8,156 bases of DNA from the IMG/VR virus record IMGVR_UViG_2913167280_000012, positions 1 to 8,156 of that record; one strand, 5' to 3'. A program made the position numbers and the translations under genes. Positions 1,057-8,156 of this stretch are shown piece by piece (position 1 is the first letter of the stretch; every line of letters begins with the position of its first letter). The DNA is from a virus. Taxonomy: Duplodnaviria > Heunggongvirae > Uroviricota > Caudoviricetes. A model generated the notes under the pieces. The model worked only from the letters and a program-made list of their open reading frames with translations. It did not search any database and was not told the origin of the DNA.

Positions 1057-1359
1057 TTAACCAATTTTCCTTTCGGATGGGGGTAAATCCGTTGGCTCTT
1101 GCCCATAGTGTGCGAGAGCCGGAGCTATCTGCCCGGATTCAGGCGCAATTTTTCCAGTCATAAACCACAAGGCATATTTTTCGAACCGCGGGCAATTTAA
1201 GATTTTCATCATTACATCCCCTTTGGGTATGGATTCGCCAGTCTCATAACGCCATAGCGCGTTATGCGGAATACCTATTAACTCCGCAGCCTCATTGCGA
1301 CTTGTAATGCGCTCACTTTCACGCATTAGTTTTAGTTTTTCACCAATCTCCAAAATCAT
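1057..1359 (-). CDS. C: P2 C-like immunity repressor (small HTH protein)
   Basis: Minus-strand ORF immediately upstream of int in the same orientation. The C-terminal half (MMKILNCPRFEKYALWFMTGKIAPESGQIAPALAHYGQ) matches my recollection of P2 repressor C (QIAPESGQIAPALAHFGQ). I start it at the second in-frame ATG (1357-1359), giving ~100 aa like P2 C, with GGAG about 8 nt upstream; the track's 1386 start adds 9 residues and has no RBS. Confidence 0.82.
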   Translation of the reverse strand: MILEIGEKLKLMRESERITSRNEAAELIGIPHNALWRYETGESIPKGDVMMKILNCPRFEKYALWFMTGKIAPESGQIAPALAHYGQEPTDLPPSERKIG

Positions 1360-1453
1360 ATTGCATTCTCCAAATATGTAGTGCATTATGCAAACAATGA
1401 GTTGAACTATGGGGTAAATATCTCACCTATACCCCAAACAGGGAGATTATCAC
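1360..1453. promoter_or_regulatory. Divergent C / cox intergenic switch region (candidate Pc/Pe promoters and operator)
   Basis: 94 bp between divergently oriented C and cox. Contains a -35-like TTGAAC (1402-1407) on the plus strand, an inverted repeat TGCAT-T-ATGCA (1382-1392), a direct repeat AAATAT (1372-1377 and 1417-1422) and an AT-rich tract. Position matches the P2 Pc/Pe switch, but I could not place exact -10 hexamers. Confidence 0.5.
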
Positions 1454-1780
1454 ATGAATGAAGAACTATTGAGGGCATTGTTTAAGATCCCAGACCCCAT
1501 CACCGTCGATGAATTTGCTCGCCGCACGGGCAAGACCGAATCAGCCGTAAGAAAGTTGGTGGAACGTCGACTCATCCCTCTGGCCACTGAGCGTGAAGTT
1601 TTAGGCGAGGAAGGAAGTTCACGCCGCCTTCTCATCCTATGGAACGAGTGGCTCGAAATGGTCTATGACGCAACGAAACAGCTTCCTCCTGAGCGTAAAG
1701 ATTGGCGCAACCACTGGCTTAATAAAGCCAAGAAGCTGGCGGAAGATTTGGGATTAGGCTTTCTTAATTTTGCTGCATGA
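1454..1780 (+). CDS. cox: Cox-like excisionase / early-operon regulator (AlpA/Cox-type HTH)
   Basis: First gene of the rightward operon, divergent from C, 108 aa, with GGGAG about 8 nt upstream of the ATG. The segment VDEFARRTGKTESAVRKLVERRLIPL resembles the HTH of P2 Cox and AlpA-type excisionases, as recalled. Confidence 0.7.
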   Translation: MNEELLRALFKIPDPITVDEFARRTGKTESAVRKLVERRLIPLATEREVLGEEGSSRRLLILWNEWLEMVYDATKQLPPERKDWRNHWLNKAKKLAEDLGLGFLNFAA

Positions 1781-1798
1781 GATGCAGGGAGTTTTGAT

Positions 1799-2140
1799 AT
1801 GAAACAGCAACGTAATTCACGCTTTCGTAATGGTGCTGAACGCCACGCTAATCGTTTCGCTACCAGTGCATCACGCAGCAACATCCGCTACAGCCTGAGC
1901 GAAACACACGCAACGCCGGATGGCTACCCAGTAAAACAAATCGGCGAGCACGCCTGGTTGATTGAGAAAGCTGGAATCGTGGTCCACAAATGCCCACGCA
2001 ATCCGTTTACCGGAAACCGCATTTTTGCACTGAGCAGCGGCGACAATCAGTTCGGGCAGGATTTCACATTATACGAAGCACTTCGCACGGTTGATCGTCT
2101 GCTTCGCGGACAAAGTTTTATTAAACAGGTTGATTTATAA
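1799..2140 (+). CDS. hypothetical early protein (113 aa)
   Basis: ORF with AGGGAG 7 nt upstream of the ATG, 18 nt after the cox stop, same strand. No family recognised. Confidence 0.62.
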   Translation: MKQQRNSRFRNGAERHANRFATSASRSNIRYSLSETHATPDGYPVKQIGEHAWLIEKAGIVVHKCPRNPFTGNRIFALSSGDNQFGQDFTLYEALRTVDRLLRGQSFIKQVDL

Positions 2141-2150
2141 CAGGTGATTT

Positions 2151-2429
2151 ATGACCAAAGAGTATGCACAAGGTGTATTTATCCGTTTTATTGATTTTCG
2201 CGGTGAACTGTTATTACGTGCATCAGCTATTGATGCTGTAGCCCAGGCAGAAAAAAAAGCAGTTACTCACGTTTATGCGAACAACGCACAACTGATCGTG
2301 GAGCTTCCGTACCAGACCGTTCGCGAAGCCATTAACGAAGCTGAAAAAGCGCGCCAGGCTAATAGCGATGAACCCTATATCGAAATTATTTGTATGGATT
2401 CAGAAGCTGAAATTAAGAAAGCAGATTAA
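2151..2429 (+). CDS. hypothetical early protein (92 aa)
   Basis: ORF with AGGTGA just upstream, 10 nt after the previous stop. Composition is protein-like. No family recognised. Confidence 0.6.
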   Translation: MTKEYAQGVFIRFIDFRGELLLRASAIDAVAQAEKKAVTHVYANNAQLIVELPYQTVREAINEAEKARQANSDEPYIEIICMDSEAEIKKAD

Positions 2430-2440
2430 AGGGCGTTGCA

Positions 2441-2683
2441 ATGGACCAGGAATACAAAACTCTCGTCAATAAAGCACTTGAGCGTTTCCATTTTCGCATA
2501 AGCGCATCAGGCACTCATGCTGAGCTCGCAGCCAGAGAGTCATTGACCAGGGCCATCAAGAGTATATACGACACAGCTTTTTACATTGACGACCCGGACG
2601 CGCTCGACGAGCTTTCCATACTCGTCTGCGCCGCAGAAAACGGGGACCATATTGAGCCATATAAACTGGGGAATATTGCATGA
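2441..2683 (+). CDS. hypothetical acidic early protein (80 aa)
   Basis: ORF in the operon frame series. Its TGA stop (2681-2683) overlaps the ATG (2680-2682) of the next small ORF. RBS is weak. Confidence 0.55.
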   Translation: MDQEYKTLVNKALERFHFRISASGTHAELAARESLTRAIKSIYDTAFYIDDPDALDELSILVCAAENGDHIEPYKLGNIA

Positions 2684-2793
2684 GTATATTTATCTCATGG
2701 CTTGTTCTGATTATTTCGGTGGCCTGCGCTATTGGAATTATGCGAATTATTCATTCAGTGAAAAAGATTGAGCGTTTTTTCTCTGACGAATAA
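2680..2793 (+). CDS. small single-pass membrane peptide (37 aa, MSIFISWLVLIISVACAIGIMRIIHSVKKIERFFSDE)
   Basis: Not in the supplied ORF track (too short); found by hand translation. ATG at 2680 overlaps the upstream stop as ATGA, with GGGGA about 8 nt upstream. Residues 3-21 form a hydrophobic helix followed by a basic/charged tail; TAA at 2791-2793. Confidence 0.4.
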   Translation: MSIFISWLVLIISVACAIGIMRIIHSVKKIERFFSDE

Positions 2794-2885
2794 CAGCACA
2801 AATAAAACACCACATTAAATAAGAAAACGTGAAAGCCATCCGCATTAGCGGAGGTATTTGTACATCCAAATAACGGAGAAAGAAA

Positions 2886-3254
2886 ATGAACGCAAAAACC
2901 GAAGACACCCTTATCTCTCTGAAAATGTTATCCGCGATGGAGCGTGAAATGCACGAGCGAGCAACAAAGGTAGGCGCTCACATTCTCAGCGTTCATGCAC
3001 TGATGGTAGCCGGCGTCATAGAAAATGCCGCCGAGCTCATCGAGGAGCAACACAAGGAAATTAGCGACCTTAAAGCTCAGCTCGCAAACGTAACATCTGC
3101 ATCCGACAACAAAGGGAGAGCCGTTCGCCTGGCCAACATGGATGCTTGCATTTATGTAATCGTGGGTGAAAACCCGGACCTTTTCCTTCTGAGACGACTA
3201 ACCGAAGACAGGGCATTTGAAGTCCACAAGTCCGAAGTGACCTTCATTAGCTGA
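2886..3254 (+). CDS. hypothetical early protein (122 aa)
   Basis: ORF with GGAG 7 nt upstream of the ATG, preceded by a 92-bp AT-rich intergenic gap (2794-2885). No family recognised. Confidence 0.62.
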   Translation: MNAKTEDTLISLKMLSAMEREMHERATKVGAHILSVHALMVAGVIENAAELIEEQHKEISDLKAQLANVTSASDNKGRAVRLANMDACIYVIVGENPDLFLLRRLTEDRAFEVHKSEVTFIS

Positions 3255-3265
3255 CGGGCGATGCA

Positions 3266-3595
3266 ATGGAAAAGCTGAAATACCACATGACTCTGATGAG
3301 TCACATTCTGAAAAGCGCAAGTGGCTTTTGTGTATACCCGTTCAGCCCTTCATGGGATGCAGAGCTACAGCAGCTACTGAATGAAGGCGTTCTCGTCGCA
3401 ACGGACGAGCACAACGCGATTTTTCATCACAACGGCAACGTCGTTGAAGTATGGATTGCTAATCGCTGGTACGGCTACGGCTGGCTGAACCGCGTTAACG
3501 GACGCGAGACTGACGCCCGTTGCACCCGCCCACGCTTTCGCACCATGTACCGCCTGCATCAAATGGTGCAGGCCTTCCAGGCAAAGGAAACGTAA
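3266..3595 (+). CDS. hypothetical early protein (109 aa, Trp/Tyr-rich C-terminal half)
   Basis: ORF 11 nt after the previous stop. Weak RBS. Its TAA stop (3593-3595) shares one base with the next ATG (TAATG). Confidence 0.55.
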   Translation: MEKLKYHMTLMSHILKSASGFCVYPFSPSWDAELQQLLNEGVLVATDEHNAIFHHNGNVVEVWIANRWYGYGWLNRVNGRETDARCTRPRFRTMYRLHQMVQAFQAKET

Positions 3596-3798
3596 TGGCA
3601 ATTAAGCGTTTTTCCGTCATTCGTTTCACCTCCAGAGGGCGTGAATACGAAGTTGACGAACGGCTGATTAAAACGCTCGACCGTCACCGTTCGCAACCTG
3701 ACGCGCATCACATTTATCTCACTGACGACACTTACTTCTGCGCCACCAACGTGGTGCAGGTGAATCTTATCAGACAGGTACAGGAGTCACGCCGATGA
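3595..3798 (+). CDS. hypothetical small protein (67 aa)
   Basis: I start it at the internal ATG 3595 (MAIKRFSVIRF...) rather than the track's 3520, because 3520-3594 lies inside the upstream gene. AGGA sits about 8 nt upstream and the start overlaps the upstream stop. Confidence 0.55.
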   Translation: MAIKRFSVIRFTSRGREYEVDERLIKTLDRHRSQPDAHHIYLTDDTYFCATNVVQVNLIRQVQESRR

Positions 3799-4040
3799 CC
3801 ATTCTGGACTACATTGCCGCCAATCCGGGCTGTAGCGGTGGAGAAATCGCCGCAGCACTGAATACCCCAACTACAGCCATTAATGCGGAGTTACGCCGAC
3901 TCTGGCGCAGCGGTTCAGTCATAAGAAAAGAGCGCAAAACAGGCGGTCGCTTTTCTTACCAGATAAACCCGATGCCGTTCGGGTGCAGCAATCCACTTAC
4001 CAACATGTTTAACCAGCTACTGAAGGAAGCCAGAGCATGA
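3795..4040 (+). CDS. hypothetical small protein, possible winged-helix DNA-binding fold (81 aa)
   Basis: ATGA overlap with the upstream gene; AGGAG 8 nt upstream. The pattern ILDYIAANPGCSGGEIAAAL...INAELRRLWRSGSVIRKER looks like a winged-helix regulator; that is a pattern judgement, not a search result. Confidence 0.6.
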   Translation: MTILDYIAANPGCSGGEIAAALNTPTTAINAELRRLWRSGSVIRKERKTGGRFSYQINPMPFGCSNPLTNMFNQLLKEARA

Positions 4041-4336
4041 GCGCCATCAACCACCAGGAATTACGCGAACTGGCAACTGACCTTCAACGAATGGCAACGC
4101 ATCAAAAATTACTGGCGTTTCGCGCAATGCTCTCGCCGTCTGCTGTGCTGGCACTGCTGGATGAGCTGGAGCACGCCAGAACCACGGCTCCTGCCATTCG
4201 CCTGACACTCCATCATGAAATTGCTGATTTCTGCGCGACGCTGGAGGCACCAGGCGAACCGGAAACGCCGGAAGCAATACAGCAAGAGCTGCTGCAACGC
4301 ATTGACAAGGTTTTTGATTTTTTTCTGAACCACTAA
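4037..4336 (+). CDS. hypothetical early protein (99 aa)
   Basis: ATGA overlap with the upstream gene; AAGGAAG about 7 nt upstream. Last ORF before the non-coding island. Confidence 0.6.
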   Translation: MSAINHQELRELATDLQRMATHQKLLAFRAMLSPSAVLALLDELEHARTTAPAIRLTLHHEIADFCATLEAPGEPETPEAIQQELLQRIDKVFDFFLNH

Positions 4337-4368
4337 GAAACCAGAACATGCACACACAAAAAAACCGC

Positions 4369-4398
4369 TTGCCATGCCGCAATCAGTCAGGTTACATT
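4369..4398 (+). promoter_or_regulatory. candidate sigma70-like promoter (TTGCCA-N18-TACATT)
   Basis: -35-like TTGCCA (4369-4374) and -10-like TACATT (4393-4398) in a non-coding region, which would start transcription near 4405. Hexamer matches are only 5/6 and 4/6. Confidence 0.25.
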
Positions 4399-4404
4399 TC
4401 CGCT

Positions 4405-4479
4405 GCACCTCATAAAACGGGTGCCGGGTTTCGCAGCCTGCTGACAACCAAAGCGCACAACCGCGCCAGCGGTTTTTTT
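4405..4479 (+). ncRNA. candidate small RNA (~75 nt) bounded by promoter-like hexamers and a terminator-like hairpin
   Basis: Between the candidate promoter and the terminator. Internal complementarity: GCACC (4405-4409) with GGTGC (4420-4424), and CGCTGC (4401-4406) with GCAGC (4433-4437). No credible ORF. Entirely a prediction. Confidence 0.22.
4459..4479 (+). terminator. candidate Rho-independent terminator
   Basis: Hairpin AACCGC (4459-4464), loop GCCA, GCGGTT (4469-4474), running into a 7-T tract (4473-4479). The stem is short, and flanking GCGCACAA / TTGTGCG could extend it or form an alternative structure. Confidence 0.45.
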
Positions 4480-4491
4480 GTGCGTACTGTA

Positions 4492-4520
4492 TTGCCACGT
4501 CTTTTTCGCACACGAATTAT
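4492..4520 (+). promoter_or_regulatory. second candidate sigma70-like promoter (TTGCCA-N17-AATTAT)
   Basis: TTGCCA (4492-4497) and AATTAT (4515-4520), which would start transcription at the base of the long hairpin beginning at 4521. TTGCCAYG is a direct repeat of the hexamer context at 4369-4376. Weak consensus match. Confidence 0.22.
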
Positions 4521-4596
4521 GGCGGGGCGTACGGGGCCGACTTCGGTCGGGCCGGGTTCTTTGGTTGCCGGTACTGCGAACCCCGTACGTCTCGCC
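4521..4596. repeat. 76-bp imperfect inverted-repeat / long-stem structured element
   Basis: GGCGGGGCGTACGGGG (4521-4536) pairs with CCCCGTACGTCTCGCC (4581-4596) over 16 bp with G-U pairs or mismatches. It encloses a 5-bp hairpin with a UUCG tetraloop (CCGAC-TTCG-GTCGG, 4537-4550) and a second CCGG-based hairpin (4551-4571). Non-coding. Confidence 0.4.
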
Positions 4597-4658
4597 ACCC
4601 ACAGTTTCGCAGCTCTGGATGGTGAGTTTTCAAAACTTACAACCAAAGAGGCCACCCC

Positions 4659-4889
4659 ATGGCAAACCGCAAACAGCACCGCGCTATCGCGGAGCGTCGT
4701 CACATCCAGACTGAAATCAACCGCAGACTTTCCCGCGCATTCCGTGTCGCTAAAATCATGCACATCAATATGCTGCATGAGCGTAGCTGCGAACTTTCAA
4801 ACCTCTACTCATCCGCTGTTTTCAGCTATCTGGCGGATGATCTGCGCGAGCTTCAGCAGCTCATCCAGCAGCAAAACAAACTCCATTAA
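4659..4889 (+). CDS. hypothetical basic small protein (76 aa)
   Basis: ORF with AAAGAGG 7 nt upstream of the ATG; first gene after the non-coding island. Arg/Lys-rich N-terminus (MANRKQHRAIAERRHIQTEINRR). No family recognised. Confidence 0.6.
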   Translation: MANRKQHRAIAERRHIQTEINRRLSRAFRVAKIMHINMLHERSCELSNLYSSAVFSYLADDLRELQQLIQQQNKLH

Positions 4890-4961
4890 TTCCTGTTCCG
4901 GGCCTTTCCTGCACCTTGCGGCGGGAGGCCTTCGCACATCTGTAACAAGAGGATTGCCGCA

Positions 4962-5327
4962 ATGATTCTCGCCAACGACTTTCTTGAATATCTGCTCAAC
5001 ACAGAGCGTGATCTTGCCGTTCGCGTGCGTGAACGTTATGACATGTACCTGAAATCCCTGCCTGTACCGCAGCTCGCTGACGGAAAGATTGTTATTGATG
5101 GTCGTTACATGATTGACAGCCACGAGGGAAATTACAGGCTTTACCGTATTGAAGGTGGCACCCCGTCCGTTATTGGCATTTACCAGCGCCCATCCTCTGC
5201 GATCGTCGATGTGATTGCCGACAGCATCCGCATCACACATCACTATGCCGACACAGAAGACACCGTGCTGGAAATTCAGCGGCTGGCTACCGTCTGCCGC
5301 GACACCCTGAATGGCATGACGAAGTAA
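4962..5327 (+). CDS. hypothetical protein immediately upstream of the replication initiator (121 aa)
   Basis: ORF with AAGAGGA 8 nt upstream of the ATG; ends 6 nt before the gpA start. It occupies the slot held by small accessory replication genes in P2-like phages. No family recognised. Confidence 0.65.
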   Translation: MILANDFLEYLLNTERDLAVRVRERYDMYLKSLPVPQLADGKIVIDGRYMIDSHEGNYRLYRIEGGTPSVIGIYQRPSSAIVDVIADSIRITHHYADTEDTVLEIQRLATVCRDTLNGMTK

Positions 5328-5333
5328 ATCACT

Positions 5334-8156
5334 ATGACGGCAGAGTACATCAGGGACTGGCAACAACCGCGCCACGCAGTGGGGCGTGAAGGAACGGGGA
5401 TCCCCGCTCCTGAATCCGCGCTTTCCTCCTGGCTGGATGCCTACCGGGCAGAGAACGAGCGCCGCAAGGAAATGGCTGATGCGGCGTTCTCCGCCACGCC
5501 GCTGGGCAACCTGATTAATAAAAGCCTGGACGCACAGGAAAAACAGGACAAAACCATCACACTGGCAGGAGACGCCAGAAAACAGGCACGCGGCGCAGTG
5601 GATGAAGCCATGGCCTCGCTGCGCCTGCTGCCGTCCTATCTGCGCGATCCGCTTATTCGCCACCTCTCCTTCCTGCGCAAAAAACAGGAAGCCGATCGCC
5701 GGAAAGGCAAAAAGAGCTGGCAGGCGGAACGCTATGCACGCGGAACCCTGCGCAAAATATTCGAACGTCTGGACCGCACCGATCACCGCTGGCTGACACC
5801 GGGTTATCGCTCCCTTGCCGGACGCGAACGCCTGGACGATTTGCTTTACCTGCCGCAGCTCAACAAACACCAGATACAGACGCTGGCCACCATGACGGCG
5901 GCGATGTTCAGCAGCACCTTCGAAAAACTCTGCGATGGCTTTGGCGCGACCGATGGCGAGCTGACCATGGATGTAACGCTGAAGGCGTATCAGATGCTGG
6001 CCCGCATGGCGTTACACCTGCACGCCATGCCTCCACATTATGACGCACTGACAACAGACAAAGACCGGAGGAACGAACCAGACACGGAGCTGCTGCCGGG
6101 CGCAATCCTTCGCCTGACCTGTGCGGAATGGTGGAAACGCAAACTGTGGCTGTTACGTTGCGAGTGGCGGGAAGAACAACTCCGCGCCGCCTGTCTGGTT
6201 TCCAGAAAAACATCGCCCTATCTGAGCCAGGACGCGTTAAGCGAGTTTCGCGCACAGCGCGAGAAAACACGCGATTTCCTGAAAAGTTTCATGCTGGAAA
6301 ATGAAGACGGGTTCACGATTGATCTCGAGACGGTGTATTACGCGGGAGTAAGTAACCCGGTTCACCGTAAGGCAGAAATGATGGCCACCATGAAGGGACT
6401 GGAACTTCTGGCCGAAGCCCGTGGCGACAGAGCGGTGTTTCTGACCGTCACCTGCCCGTCAAAATACCACGCAACAACGGAGAACGGTCATCCGAACCCC
6501 AAATGGAACGGGGCCACCATGCGCGACTCCAGCGATTACCTGGTTAACACGTTTTTTGCGGCGGTCCGCAAAAAACTGAACCGCGACGGCCTGCGCTGGT
6601 ATGGCATCCGCACGGTGGAGCCTCACCATGACGGCACTGTGCACTGGCATATGATGGTCTTTGCACATCCGGACGAGATTGAAACCATCGTGTCCCACGT
6701 CTGCGATATTGCCATTCAGGAGGACCGCCACGAGCTGGGCGATGACATAACTCCGCGTTTTAAGGCGGAGTATGTCGACGGCTCAAAAGGCACACCAACC
6801 AGCTACATCGCCACCTACATCGGAAAGAACCTGGACAGCCGCGCCGTGGATGGCATCGACCCGAAAACGGGCAAGCCACGCGTTGACCACGAAACCGGAA
6901 AATCAATGGCCGAGAGCGTGGAGCGCGCCATCGGCTGGGCGCGCCTTCACCGGGTCCGTCAGTTCCAGTTCTTTGGCATCCCCTCCCGTCAGGTGTGGCG
7001 TGAACTGCGCCGCCTTGCCAGCCAGATGGCACGCAATCCGGAAGGCCCGCAACGGCTGAAAGATGATGCAATGGATGCGGTACTCGCTGCCGCCGATGCC
7101 GGGTGTTTTGCCACCTACATTGAAAAACAGGGTGGCGTGCTTGTTCCACGCAAGGACTACCTGATTCGCACCGCCTACGACCTCGCAGATGAGCTGAACG
7201 ATTACGGCGAACAGAGCGTACAGATTTACGGGATCTGGTCACCACTCATCGGGGAATCCTCCCGTGTGTGCACGCATCCGGATAACTGGAAGTTGGTAAG
7301 ACGTAAACCAGAACCAGAAGACAACGCCCACGAAAATGGTTTTGACCTTCAGGGCGGCCCTGCCGCCCCTTGGACTCGTGGCAATAACTGTCCCCGTGCA
7401 CAGGAAACGGACAACAACGGGACAGAACAGCCGGAAGAACGACCAGCACCGTGGCCGCAGCTTCCTGACGGCGTTGATGTGGATGAATGGATGCGCTCAC
7501 TGAAACGGCACGAACGCCGGGCGCTGATGCGTTCGCTGCGTGACAAACAGGCAAAAAACAGCAGTGATGAAATGCAGAGCTGGACACAGAGCCGCAAACA
7601 GCAGCGGCCTTTGCCTGATAACCACGAATTACTCGCTAAAGAATGGCGGGAGTCTGCCGAATCTCTCGGCCTGCATATCGGTGAACAGCAGATGCAGCAC
7701 CTGTTGCGGGGCGGCAGCCTGTACGTTGACGGCAGCATCATTGCACCGCAGGGATTTGAAATTGTACGCAAACCGGATATCCGCCCGGACAGCCGAATCA
7801 CGCAGCTCTGGCAGCGCCTGAGCCGCAATCACGGCGTAAGCAGCACGGAGATCCGTCATAACCCGGTCGCCAGCTATCTGGAACAGCTGGGGGCATCAGA
7901 CCCCGAAGCCGCCGCACGCCTGGCATCCACACTTCAGCAAGACCAGAACACCATGAAAACACCCGTTACCGTGCTTTCTGACATGCTGCGCGCCATCCGT
8001 GACGCAGAGCACGCACAGAGAATCAGTGAAACCACTGAACGCGCCCGCCGCAAAGCAAACCTGCTGCGGGGTGGCCTGACCAGTGGAAACAAAAAACAGA
8101 CAGAAACGGGATTCACAAATCCCGTAAATGAGCAAAAAACGCGCCGCGATATATGA
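5334..8156 (+). CDS. A: GpA-type rolling-circle replication initiator (HUH endonuclease, P2 gene A family)
   Basis: 940-aa ORF ending at the window edge (TGA 8154-8156). It carries an HUH motif VHWHMMVF (nt 6639-6659, His437/His439) and a YxxxY tyrosine pair in SYIATYIGKN (Tyr491/Tyr495, nt 6804-6818), matching the arrangement I recall for P2 GpA (Tyr450/Tyr454). Weak RBS, so translation may be coupled to the upstream gene. Confidence 0.9.
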   Translation: MTAEYIRDWQQPRHAVGREGTGIPAPESALSSWLDAYRAENERRKEMADAAFSATPLGNLINKSLDAQEKQDKTITLAGDARKQARGAVDEAMASLRLLPSYLRDPLIRHLSFLRKKQEADRRKGKKSWQAERYARGTLRKIFERLDRTDHRWLTPGYRSLAGRERLDDLLYLPQLNKHQIQTLATMTAAMFSSTFEKLCDGFGATDGELTMDVTLKAYQMLARMALHLHAMPPHYDALTTDKDRRNEPDTELLPGAILRLTCAEWWKRKLWLLRCEWREEQLRAACLVSRKTSPYLSQDALSEFRAQREKTRDFLKSFMLENEDGFTIDLETVYYAGVSNPVHRKAEMMATMKGLELLAEARGDRAVFLTVTCPSKYHATTENGHPNPKWNGATMRDSSDYLVNTFFAAVRKKLNRDGLRWYGIRTVEPHHDGTVHWHMMVFAHPDEIETIVSHVCDIAIQEDRHELGDDITPRFKAEYVDGSKGTPTSYIATYIGKNLDSRAVDGIDPKTGKPRVDHETGKSMAESVERAIGWARLHRVRQFQFFGIPSRQVWRELRRLASQMARNPEGPQRLKDDAMDAVLAAADAGCFATYIEKQGGVLVPRKDYLIRTAYDLADELNDYGEQSVQIYGIWSPLIGESSRVCTHPDNWKLVRRKPEPEDNAHENGFDLQGGPAAPWTRGNNCPRAQETDNNGTEQPEERPAPWPQLPDGVDVDEWMRSLKRHERRALMRSLRDKQAKNSSDEMQSWTQSRKQQRPLPDNHELLAKEWRESAESLGLHIGEQQMQHLLRGGSLYVDGSIIAPQGFEIVRKPDIRPDSRITQLWQRLSRNHGVSSTEIRHNPVASYLEQLGASDPEAAARLASTLQQDQNTMKTPVTVLSDMLRAIRDAEHAQRISETTERARRKANLLRGGLTSGNKKQTETGFTNPVNEQKTRRDI

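What the first reader, a model, noticed from the sequence alone, without database searches (positions are those of the whole stretch)
4521..4596. 76-bp long-stem element with an internal UUCG tetraloop hairpin
A 16-bp closing stem encloses two internal hairpins, one of them CCGAC-UUCG-GUCGG; UUCG is an unusually stable tetraloop. The size is tRNA-like but the architecture is not (no T-loop GTTC, closing stem far longer than an acceptor stem). It could be a structured 5' leader for the downstream replication genes, a protein-binding or processing site, or a small palindromic mobile or repetitive unit inserted between modules.
Basis: seen in the sequence. Interest (0 to 1): 0.5.

Follow-up and report, generated by a model that had tools for sequence, protein, structure and literature searches.

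The report
Phage C4-type antisense immunity RNA
The 76-bp stem-loop is the gene for a well-known kind of small phage regulatory RNA (C4 of phage P1, CI of phage P4), sitting here in a P2-like E. coli prophage where it most likely blocks translation of the anti-repressor-like gene just downstream.

Summary
Window 4521-4596 (+) folds into a 16-bp closing stem around a CCGAC-UUCG-GUCGG hairpin and a second hairpin (-47.6 kcal/mol, z -4.3).

It is not a new element. Rfam C4 antisense RNA (RF01695) matches 4515-4602 over the full model at 87 bits (cut-off 45), and isrK (RF01394) matches 4405-4479 just upstream. The window is the early region of a P88-like, P2-family prophage.

Two unpaired segments, a' (CUGCGAA, 4574-4580) and b' (UCUUUGGUUG, 4558-4567), are complementary to a1/b1 inside isrK (4430-4436, 4445-4453). 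They are also complementary to a2/b2 downstream (4606-4612, 4640-4649). b2 overlaps the Shine-Dalgarno sequence of a 76-aa homologue of the P4 Eps derepression protein (ATG 4659).

In 17 related modules, including P1 and P4, a'/b' differ between phages and both target pairs change with them. 14 of 27 helix pairs show compensatory changes.

Most likely mechanism: an RNase P-processed ~79-nt antisense RNA represses translation of the derepression gene, possibly with polarity on replication gene A. IsrK would carry a competing target copy.

The repeat, tRNA and protein-coding readings are rejected. Verdict: an ordinary, unannotated member of a known family.

The parts
4369..4398 (+). Promoter-like site of the isrK-like RNA (-35 TTGCCA 4369-4374, 18-nt spacer, -10 TACATT 4393-4398). 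It would start transcription near 4405.
   Evidence: Consensus scan. The TTG of the -35 and the TA..T of the -10 are kept at the same place in P88-like, lambdoid and Klebsiella modules. Function was not tested.
4405..4479 (+). isrK-like small RNA (the seqA region of P4; the a1/b1 region of P1): two 5' hairpins, a single-stranded linker and an intrinsic terminator (stem 4459-4474, then a U-run to 4479).
   Evidence: Rfam RF01394 at 65.9 bits (cut-off 50), full model. Terminator scan. The same isrK-C4 tandem is found in 15 other loci, including P4.
4430..4436 (+). a1: UUCGCAG, complementary to a' of the C4 RNA.
   Evidence: Exact 7-nt complement. It co-varies with a' in all modules examined.
4445..4453 (+). 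b1: CAACCAAAG, complementary to b' of the C4 RNA.
   Evidence: Exact 9-nt complement. There are only 3 occurrences in the window, against 0.12 expected, and all are in this module. It co-varies with b'.
4515..4602 (+). C4 antisense RNA gene as matched by Rfam. The predicted mature RNA is 4521-4599 (79 nt). Helix P1 is 4521-4536/4581-4596, P2 is 4537-4550 (UUCG loop at 4542-4545), and P3 is 4551-4555/4568-4572.
   Evidence: RF01695 at 87.1 bits (cut-off 45), E 1e-16, model positions 1-87. Fold z -4.34. 14 of 27 pairs have compensatory changes in 13 sequences. Ends are assigned by register with the annotated P1 c4.
4558..4567 (+). b': UCUUUGGUUG in the P3 loop, an antisense recognition segment.
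   Evidence: Complementary to b1 and b2. These are among the most variable columns of the family (entropy 1.05 against 0.48 for paired columns).
4574..4580 (+). a': CUGCGAA in the unpaired junction 3' of P3, an antisense recognition segment.
   Evidence: Complementary to a1 and a2. Hypervariable between phages.
4591..4630 (+). Alternative hairpin. The 3' strand of the C4 closing stem (4591-4597) pairs with 4620-4626, with a2 in the apical part, followed by UUUU (4627-4630). It is terminator-like and mutually exclusive with the C4 closing stem.
   Evidence: Present in the MFE of the 261-nt read-through transcript. An equivalent hairpin is predicted in 13 of 14 modules, with both strands changed in F039, Kpn74 and P4; P1 shows only a weaker 5-bp stem. 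Weinberg et al. noted such overlapping terminator hairpins.
4606..4612 (+). a2: UUCGCAG, the downstream target of a'.
   Evidence: Exact complement. It starts at a near-fixed offset (+1 to +8 after the Rfam model end) and co-varies with a' in all 17 modules.
4640..4651 (+). b2 (CAACCAAAGA 4640-4649, plus one G-U pair at 4650) overlapping the Shine-Dalgarno sequence AAGAGG (4646-4651) of the next ORF.
   Evidence: An 11-bp duplex with b'. In every module b2 abuts the Shine-Dalgarno sequence (GAGG/GGAG) of the downstream ORF. P1 b2 is annotated in the same way.
4659..4889 (+). Regulated gene: a 76-aa homologue of the P4 Eps (epsilon) helper-derepression protein.
   Evidence: Pfam PF25738 Derepression, 29.5 bits (cut-off 27). 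P4 Eps hits the same family at 170 bits. Pairwise BLASTP with P4 Eps gives 29% identity over 66 aa, E 1e-8. Function was not tested.

Best explanation
The element is the gene for a C4/CI-type antisense RNA. It is the middle part of a three-part 'IsrK-C4' RNA immunity cassette carried in the early region of a P88-like (P2-family, Xuanwuvirus) E. coli prophage.

Proposed working:
1. Transcription starts at the promoter-like site at 4369-4398. Most transcripts stop at the isrK terminator (4459-4479) and give a short IsrK-like RNA.
2. Read-through transcripts contain the 4521-4599 stem-loop. RNase P cuts this out at its 5' end (between U4520 and G4521), and its 3' end is trimmed next to the conserved ACC.
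3. The resulting ~79-nt RNA exposes b' (P3 loop) and a' (junction). These pair with a2 (4606-4612) and b2 (4640-4650) on the same operon's mRNA.
4. The b' duplex covers the Shine-Dalgarno sequence of the Eps-like derepression gene (ATG 4659) and blocks its translation.
5. By analogy with P1 and P4, the untranslated mRNA is then exposed to Rho. That would also lower expression of the downstream ORF (4962-5327) and of replication gene A.
6. The a1/b1 copy carried by IsrK is a competing binding site. In cis it can sequester a'/b' in the unprocessed transcript, and in trans it can titrate the antisense RNA.

Shown here: the identity, the fold, the complementarities, and their co-variation across phages.
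Inferred from characterised relatives: the processing, the translational block, the Rho polarity, and whether IsrK activates or represses.
For: **Family match.** Rfam C4 matches at 87.1 bits against a cut-off of 45, over the full-length model. isrK matches at 65.9 bits against 50, immediately upstream.

**Structure.**
- z -4.34 on the + strand only.
- In 13 homologues all 27 pairs are kept, and 14 show compensatory changes.
- G-U pairs fix the strand.

**Target sites in the window.**
- a'/b' are exactly complementary to a1/b1 and a2/b2.
- CAACCAAAG occurs only at these three places in 8 kb, against 0.12 expected.
- 0 of 20,000 shuffles of the flanks contain both sites.

**Layout compared with P1.** The order a1, b1, RNA, a2, b2, start codon matches the experimentally annotated P1 c4-icd-ant region, with comparable spacing.

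**Co-variation across phages.**
- In 17 modules (P88-like, lambdoid Stx and Salmonella phages, Klebsiella Kpn74, P4, P1), a'/b' differ between phages.
- Both target pairs track them, with a2 and b2 at near-constant offsets after the RNA. b2 is always joined to the Shine-Dalgarno sequence.
- Over the 14 modules, cognate duplex length sums are 16-19 in 13 of 14 (Kpn74 scores 13). The non-cognate mean is 10.5.

**Processing signals.** An invariant A-U-G-G at the 5' edge and C-R-C-C at the 3' edge fit an RNase P substrate. P1 C4 and P4 CI are known RNase P substrates (PMC5499578, PMC2190699).

**Relation to P4.** The P4 CI RNA and seqA region are hit by the same two Rfam models, and P4 eps lies downstream in the same operon. 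The equivalence of IsrK with seqA and of C4 with CI is stated in PMC3632133 and PMC4825925.

**Tetraloop.** The UUCG loop is typical of the family: 233 of 492 unique family members have UNCG in P2 (Weinberg 2010 supplement).
Against: - Nothing here shows that the RNA is made, processed or stable in this prophage.
- The isrK terminator lies between the only conserved promoter and the C4 gene, so expression depends on read-through or on transcription from the upstream early operon.
- For the full 261-nt read-through transcript, the predicted MFE is not the C4 fold. It is a cis structure in which a1/b1 pair with a'/b' and the 3' strand forms an alternative hairpin (-109.9 against -102.4 kcal/mol with the C4 fold enforced). 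A purely cis-acting mode is therefore thermodynamically plausible.
- Published work on the Gifsy-1 homologue (PMC4825925) explains regulation through IsrK acting on an mRNA conformer and through translation of an ORF over the C4 region, not through a C4-like repressor.
- The sign of the IsrK effect differs between systems. It activates in Gifsy-1, but the homologous sequence is needed for immunity in P4.
- The 'derepression' function of the 76-aa ORF rests on weak homology: 29.5 bits, 29% identity.
Confidence: 0.85

Rival explanations
1. Purely cis-acting leader or riboregulator. The sequence never acts as a free RNA. Instead it toggles the read-through transcript between two folds. In conformer A, a1/b1 pair with a'/b' and the 4591-4626 hairpin with its U-run is formed. 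In conformer B, isrK and the C4 stem-loop fold separately. The toggle would control termination and ribosome access, with short IsrK acting in trans as the switch, as proposed for Gifsy-1.
For: - The MFE of the 261-nt transcript is conformer A.
- The alternative 3' hairpin followed by Us is conserved, with compensatory changes in F039, Kpn74 and P4.
- Weinberg et al. raised a cis role.
- Genetic and structure-probing data exist for the Gifsy-1 homologue (PMC4825925).
Against: - In P1 and P4 the homologous RNA is a stable, processed, trans-acting immunity factor (annotation; PMC5499578; PMC3632133).
- An ~80-nt processed species (STnc1160) is also seen in Gifsy-1.
- The invariant RNase P-type ends and the a2/b2 sites matched to a'/b' are not needed for a simple two-state leader.
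- The two modes are not exclusive.
Confidence: 0.1
2. The DNA encodes a protein or peptide, either an 'Ash family protein' or an orf45-like upstream ORF. In this reading the stem-loop is incidental, or only modulates translation of that ORF.
For: - Pfam Phage_ASH hits the 205-aa ORF at 4348-4965 (31.8 bits).
- PGAP annotates an 'ash family protein' pseudogene on the near-identical DNA.
- The frame in register with the invariant AUG at 4519 is open from isrK to the downstream start codon in 15 of 16 modules. Only about 5% of shuffles of one sequence do this.
- orf45 translation was shown in Gifsy-1.
Against: - There is no codon-position bias: 19, 21 and 18 variable columns at positions 1, 2 and 3.
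- Substitutions are compensatory for RNA helices.
- The hypervariable a'/b' segments change together with two non-coding sites, which coding cannot explain.
- In the window the frame runs on to 4965, out of frame across the Eps-like ORF, giving a low-complexity product.
- RNase P cleavage would split the AUG.
- The P4 'cI protein' that also hits Phage_ASH is, according to the literature, an RNA.
Confidence: 0.03
3. A repetitive palindromic or miniature mobile element (REP/ERIC-like), or a tRNA-like remnant or DNA-level cruciform or protein-binding site.
For: Imperfect 17-nt inverted repeat, intergenic position, and tRNA-like size.
Against: - 1998 of 5426 complete E. coli genomes have it, with a median of 1 place per genome and a maximum of 7. 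The annotated features listed under the matches are prophage genes: derepression protein, Rha or Ash.
- No tRNA is found.
- The strand asymmetry of the fold and the conserved G-U pairs point to an RNA on the + strand.
Confidence: 0.01

Closest known systems
c4 antisense RNA of phages P1 and P7 (ImmI region: c4-icd-ant)
   Same: - Same Rfam family and three-helix fold.
- Same order: a1, b1, RNA, a2, b2, start codon.
- b2 lies over the ribosome-binding site.
- The regulated product antagonises the prophage repressor.
- Same RNase P-type ends.
   Different: - The P1 upstream a1/b1 element matches Rfam c4-a1b1 (RF03163) rather than isrK, and has no isrK-type terminator before c4.
- P1 regulates icd, with ant translationally coupled behind it. 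Here the first ORF is itself the Eps-like protein.
- The host phage is P2-like, not P1-like.
- The a'/b' sequences differ.
CI RNA immunity system of satellite phage P4 (seqA - CI/seqB - seqC, then eps and alpha)
   Same: - The same two Rfam models hit P4 in the same order.
- An Eps-family derepression gene and a replication gene lie downstream in the same operon.
- a'/b' and both targets co-vary.
   Different: - In P4 the isrK-like and C4-like parts are 107 nt apart, against 35 nt here.
- The ORF directly under b2 is a different short ORF, and eps lies about 245 nt further on.
- P4 is a satellite whose Eps acts on the helper's C repressor. Here the cassette sits in a helper-type phage whose own repressor is 58% identical to P2 C.
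- Eps identity is only 29%.
IsrK - orf45 (STnc1160) - AnrP locus of Salmonella Gifsy-1 and the equivalent modules of Stx and other lambdoid phages
   Same: - About 70-73% nucleotide identity over isrK, C4 and a2/b2.
- Same promoter, terminator, alternative folds and open frame from the invariant AUG.
- One GenBank record already annotates both ncRNAs (LC710660).
   Different: - The downstream cargo is a Rha/Ant-type antirepressor or antiterminator, read in frame with the upstream ORF. Here the cargo is an unrelated 76-aa Eps-like protein in another frame.
- The published model stresses activation by IsrK, not repression by the C4-like RNA.

Membership tests
C4 antisense RNA (Rfam RF01695; P1 C4 / P4 CI) | Covariance-model score above the curated gathering threshold over the full model. 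| tested here: met
   87.1 bits against 45, model positions 1-87, E 1e-16.
C4 antisense RNA (Rfam RF01695; P1 C4 / P4 CI) | A long closing helix enclosing a short hairpin with a stable tetraloop and a second hairpin with a large loop, supported by covariation. | tested here: met
   Fold. 27 pairs kept in 13 sequences, 14 with compensatory changes. The UNCG loop is typical of the family.
C4 antisense RNA (Rfam RF01695; P1 C4 / P4 CI) | Two unpaired segments (a', b') complementary to a downstream a2/b2 pair, with b2 at the ribosome-binding site of the next gene. | tested here: met
   Co-variation in 17 modules.
C4 antisense RNA (Rfam RF01695; P1 C4 / P4 CI) | A second, upstream copy of the targets (a1/b1; seqA). 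| tested here: met
   4430-4436 and 4445-4453, inside the isrK match.
C4 antisense RNA (Rfam RF01695; P1 C4 / P4 CI) | Released from a longer transcript by RNase P as a stable RNA of about 77-79 nt. | not testable with these tools
   Only the sequence signals are present: invariant U(-1)/G(+1) and 3' RCC. Processing is documented for P1 and P4 only (PMC5499578).
C4 antisense RNA (Rfam RF01695; P1 C4 / P4 CI) | Represses an anti-repressor or lytic function and so contributes to immunity. | not testable with these tools
   The target ORF is a weak Eps homologue. No functional data exist for P88-like phages in the literature searched.
isrK (Rfam RF01394; P4 seqA region) | Covariance-model score above threshold, own promoter, intrinsic terminator, located immediately 5' of a C4-type RNA. 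| tested here: met
   65.9 bits against 50. Promoter-like and terminator-like sites. The tandem arrangement is seen in 16 of the 17 modules; P1 has c4-a1b1 instead of isrK.
REP/ERIC-type repetitive palindromic elements | Many dispersed copies per genome in intergenic regions unrelated to prophages. | tested here: not met
   Median of 1 place per genome and a maximum of 7, in a prophage gene context.
tRNA or tRNA-like gene | Cloverleaf with anticodon arm and T-loop. | tested here: not met
   ARAGORN finds none. No tRNA family appears in the Rfam scan.
Ash protein family (Pfam PF10554) | A conserved protein-coding gene. | tested here: inconclusive
   The HMM hit is above threshold (31.8 bits against 26) and the frame is open in 15 of 16 modules. 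However, there is no codon-position bias, and the constraint pattern is that of RNA helices and antisense sites.

The most novel reading that the evidence does not exclude
P88-like P2-family phages carry their own P4-type RNA immunity and derepression cassette, which phage P2 itself lacks. In this reading the C4-like RNA keeps an Eps-like protein silent. When released, for example when IsrK outcompetes it, that protein inactivates a P2-C-type repressor. The phage's own repressor is 58% identical to P2 C, the known target of P4 Eps.

This would give this branch of a classically non-SOS-inducible phage family an RNA-gated induction switch. The switch could also act across co-resident P2-like prophages or against P4-like satellites. 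The independently assorting a'/b' specificities would then define RNA 'immunity types'. It would also suggest that P4 acquired its immunity module from such a helper-type phage, or the reverse.
Probability: 0.3. Interest if true: 0.5.

Novelty: already known. Interest (0 to 1): 0.18.

Why it matters
**For the scan.** This closes the finding. The hairpin is a textbook phage antisense RNA that a routine Rfam search identifies.

**Annotation.** Public records mislabel this DNA in four ways:
- An 'ash family protein' pseudogene in RefSeq.
- A minus-strand hypothetical protein in the phage P88 record.
- N-terminal extensions of 'antirepressor' genes in Stx phages.
- A Pfam family (Phage_ASH) that appears to be built on translated RNA genes.

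**Biology.** The cassette here guards an Eps-like gene in a helper-type P2-family phage. I found no description of that combination. If functional, it bears on how such prophages are induced and how they interact with P4-like satellites.

Tried and rejected
- **tRNA or tRNA-like gene.** ARAGORN finds nothing.
- **REP-type repeat.** Rejected by copy number in 5426 E. coli genomes.
- **A separate promoter for the C4 RNA** (TTGCCA-17-AATTAT, 4492-4520).
  - Its -35 is not conserved even among P88-like relatives, and the spacer is absent from lambdoid modules.
  - Its start site would fall inside the closing stem.
  - The AATTAT is better explained as the conserved RNase P leader. I treat the site as a chance match.
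- **RNAalifold on a MAFFT alignment of the region 3' of C4.** It gave no structure because the alignment was poor. Folding each sequence on its own showed the conserved alternative hairpin instead.
- **Searching the Weinberg 2010 alignments for this exact loop sequence.** No hit.
- **Primary papers on RNase P processing of C4 and on the P4 target sites** (PMC41593, PMC176756). They are not held, so those facts are cited through later papers.
- **NCBIfam.** It has no model for the Eps-like ORF or for ORF121.
- **Literature searches for a description of this cassette in P88-like phages.** None found.
- **A genome-wide scan with the 76-aa protein.** It returned only three close relatives, so distant P2-family carriers were not sampled.

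Full report
**Observation.**
- A 16-bp closing stem (4521-4536 with 4581-4596, two G-U pairs).
- The hairpin CCGAC-UUCG-GUCGG (4537-4550).
- A second 5-bp hairpin (4551-4555/4568-4572) with a 12-nt loop.
- An 8-nt unpaired junction (4573-4580).

The energy is -47.6 kcal/mol, z = -4.34, and none of 200 shuffles folds as well. The opposite strand folds much less well (-33.7, z -2.8). ARAGORN finds no tRNA. The literal string GTTC does occur in the second loop (4556-4559), but not in a T-loop context.

**Identity.** An Rfam scan of the window gives two hits above the curated thresholds.
- C4 antisense RNA (RF01695) at 4515-4602: 87.1 bits against a cut-off of 45, full model, E 1e-16.
- isrK (RF01394) at 4405-4479: 65.9 bits against 50.

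Weinberg et al. counted UNCG in 233 of 492 unique C4 sequences (supplement of PMC2864571).

**Genomic setting.** The window is the early region of a P88-like, P2-family prophage (Peduoviridae, Xuanwuvirus) of E. coli. Its genes are listed below.

| Coordinates | Strand | Feature |
|---|---|---|
| 1-1023 | - | integrase |
| 1057-1386 | - | repressor, 58% identical to P2 C |
| 1454-1780 | + | Cox |
| 1780-3795 | + | small early ORFs |
| 3795-4040 | + | MarR-like ORF |
| 4037-4336 | + | Ead/Ea22-like ORF |
| 4405-4602 | + | the two RNA genes |
| 4659-4889 | + | 76-aa ORF in Pfam family 'Derepression' (PF25738, the family of P4 Eps) |
| 4962-5327 | + | ORF121 |
| 5334-8156 | + | gene A replication endonuclease |

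The 76-aa ORF is a weak Eps homologue: 29.5 bits against a cut-off of 27 in Pfam, and 29% identity over 66 aa with P4 Eps, E 1e-8. Phage P2 itself has no C4 or isrK in the equivalent region.

**Antisense anatomy.** Two unpaired segments of the RNA have exact complements on both sides on the same strand.
- b' (UCUUUGGUUG, 4558-4567, P3 loop) matches b1 (4445-4453) and b2 (4640-4649, plus a G-U pair at 4650).
- a' (CUGCGAA, 4574-4580, junction) matches a1 (4430-4436) and a2 (4606-4612).
- a1 and b1 lie inside the isrK match.
- b2 overlaps the Shine-Dalgarno sequence AAGAGG (4646-4651) of the Eps-like ORF, whose ATG is at 4659.

These matches are not chance. CAACCAAAG occurs three times in the 8-kb window, all within this module, against 0.12 expected. 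In 20,000 dinucleotide shuffles of the flanks, no shuffle contained both sites in one flank. The order a1, b1, RNA, a2, b2, start codon, and the spacings, match the experimentally annotated c4-icd-ant region of P1.

**Comparative test.** I collected 16 further modules and located C4 and its upstream partner in each with Rfam.
- P88-like: P88, E. coli 89-3156 and O157:H7 2571, Citrobacter phage Shae_phiSM, E. albertii, a Salmonella chromosome, and a contig labelled Vagococcus.
- Lambdoid: five Stx-converting phages and Salmonella phage 118970_sal3.
- Others: Klebsiella phage Kpn74, P4 and P1.

In P4 the two models hit the known CI RNA and the seqA leader, with eps downstream. This agrees with the published equivalence of IsrK with seqA and of C4 with CI (PMC3632133; PMC4825925).

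Results of the comparison:
- All 27 base pairs of the consensus fold are kept in 13 sequences, and 14 pairs show compensatory double changes.
- The a' and b' segments are the most variable parts of the RNA (entropy about 1.05 against 0.48 for paired columns).
- In every module a1/b1 and a2/b2 carry the matching complement. a2 starts +1 to +8 and b2 +29 to +39 after the model end, and b2 always abuts the Shine-Dalgarno sequence.
- Over the 14 modules, cognate RNA-target pairs give summed duplex lengths of 16-19 in 13 of 14 (Kpn74 scores 13). The non-cognate mean is 10.5.

The P88-like modules are otherwise about 85-95% identical to the window over the module. Six distinct a'/b' combinations are seen among them, seven counting the window's own, and a' and b' assort independently. 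This three-way co-variation is strong evidence that the pairings are under selection.

**Processing signals.** The alignment shows an invariant A-U-G-G at the 5' edge of the stem and C-R-C-C at its 3' edge. P1 C4 and P4 CI are established RNase P substrates of the hairpin type (PMC5499578; PMC2190699). By register with the annotated P1 c4 RNA, the predicted mature RNA here is 4521-4599, 79 nt. Processing itself cannot be tested with these tools.

**Alternative structures.** Folding the 261-nt read-through transcript (4405-4665) gives an MFE in which a1/b1 pair in cis with a'/b'. In that fold the 3' strand of the C4 stem (4591-4597) pairs with 4620-4626, forming a hairpin with a2 in its apical part, followed by UUUU. 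This fold scores -109.9 kcal/mol, against -102.4 when the C4 fold is enforced.

An equivalent 3' hairpin is predicted in 13 of 14 modules, and both strands are changed in F039, Kpn74 and P4. P1 shows only a weaker 5-bp stem. The fold corresponds to the 'structure A' described for the Gifsy-1 isrK locus, and to Weinberg's remark about terminator hairpins overlapping the closing stem. A cis-regulatory component is therefore likely to coexist with the trans-acting RNA.

**Mechanism proposed.**
1. Transcripts start at the conserved promoter-like site 4369-4398. They either stop at the isrK terminator, giving short IsrK, or read through.
2. Read-through RNA is processed to the ~79-nt antisense RNA.
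3. This RNA binds a2/b2 and blocks ribosome access to the Eps-like gene.
4. By analogy with P1 and P4, the block should also cause Rho-dependent polarity on ORF121 and gene A.
5. The a1/b1 copy in IsrK competes for a'/b'.

The complementarities, the fold and the co-variation are shown. Expression, processing, the translational block, the polarity and the sign of the IsrK effect are inferred. IsrK activates in Gifsy-1 (PMC4825925), but the homologous sequence is required for immunity in P4 (PMC3632133).

**Rivals.**
- A repetitive palindromic element is excluded. 1998 of 5426 complete E. coli genomes carry a match, with a median of one place per genome, next to derepression, Rha or Ash annotations.
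- A protein-coding reading has some support. Pfam Phage_ASH hits the ORF spanning both RNAs. The frame in register with the invariant AUG is open in 15 of 16 modules, which happens in about 5% of shuffles of one sequence.
- Against coding, there is no codon-position bias (19, 21 and 18 variable columns). The constraints are those of RNA helices and antisense sites. In the window the frame runs out of frame across the Eps-like gene to 4965.
- A second promoter-like site at 4492-4520 is not conserved and would start inside the stem.

**Novelty and verdict.** The kind of element, its architecture and its mechanism are known from P1/P7, P4, N15 and lambdoid prophages. One GenBank record already annotates the isrK plus C4 tandem (LC710660). 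I found no description of the cassette in P88-like phages or of its pairing with an Eps-like gene in a helper-type phage. That is a new context rather than a new kind of element. The finding is real, well explained and ordinary, so its interest is low.

Noticed in passing
window 4348-4965 (+); L009 (P4) 8168-8584 (-): Pfam family Phage_ASH (PF10554) matches the translation of the DNA that encodes isrK and C4, here and in P4's old 'cI protein'. RefSeq labels the same DNA an 'ash family protein' pseudogene. The P88 record places a minus-strand hypothetical CDS on it. Stx phage records extend 'antirepressor' CDSs across it. There is no codon-position bias, so the protein family is probably a translated RNA gene.
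   Followed up: partly
window 4519-4965 (+), and the equivalent frame in 15 other loci: The invariant AUG at the RNase P site (4519-4521) opens a frame that has no stop between isrK and the downstream start codon in 15 of 16 modules. By position it corresponds to the first start codon (A107) of 'orf45' in Gifsy-1, which was shown to be translated. In the window the frame continues for 148 codons, out of frame over the Eps-like ORF.
   Followed up: partly
window 4352-4372 and 4465-4485: A 21-nt inverted repeat, 90% complementary, brackets the isrK promoter and the 3' half of its terminator plus the U-run. In transcripts coming from the upstream early operon it could compete with the terminator hairpin, giving possible antitermination. 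It is conserved only within the closely related P88-like group, so covariation could not be assessed.
   Followed up: partly
window 4591-4630; same position in L001-L013: A conserved alternative hairpin uses the 3' strand of the C4 closing stem and is followed by a U-run, with a2 in its loop. It is predicted in 13 of 14 modules, with compensatory changes in F039, Kpn74 and P4; P1 shows only a weaker 5-bp stem. It may be a regulated terminator.
   Followed up: partly
window 4558-4580; L001, L003, L004, L014, L015, L016: Among otherwise very similar P88-like phages the a' and b' recognition segments occur in different combinations. For example, the window shares b' with Shae_phiSM and a' with two Stx phages. 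This suggests modular exchange of RNA 'immunity' specificities.
   Followed up: partly
window 1057-1386 (-); L017 (P2): The prophage repressor is 58% identical to P2 C, the known target of P4 Eps. P2's own early region has neither C4 nor isrK, so the cassette is an accessory of the P88-like branch.
   Followed up: partly
window 4337-4404, compared with L001 4084-4914 and L002 5066-5890: P88 and E. coli 89-3156 carry an SPFH-domain gene between the Ead-like ORF and isrK. The window and the O157:H7 2571 prophage lack it, so there is an insertion/deletion hotspot just upstream of the RNA cassette.
   Followed up: no
L016 (NZ_JBQPOM010000071.1): A contig labelled Vagococcus sp. carries a P88-like enterobacterial module (isrK, C4, Eps-like ORF at 84% identity). 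This probably reflects contamination or mislabelling of that assembly.
   Followed up: no
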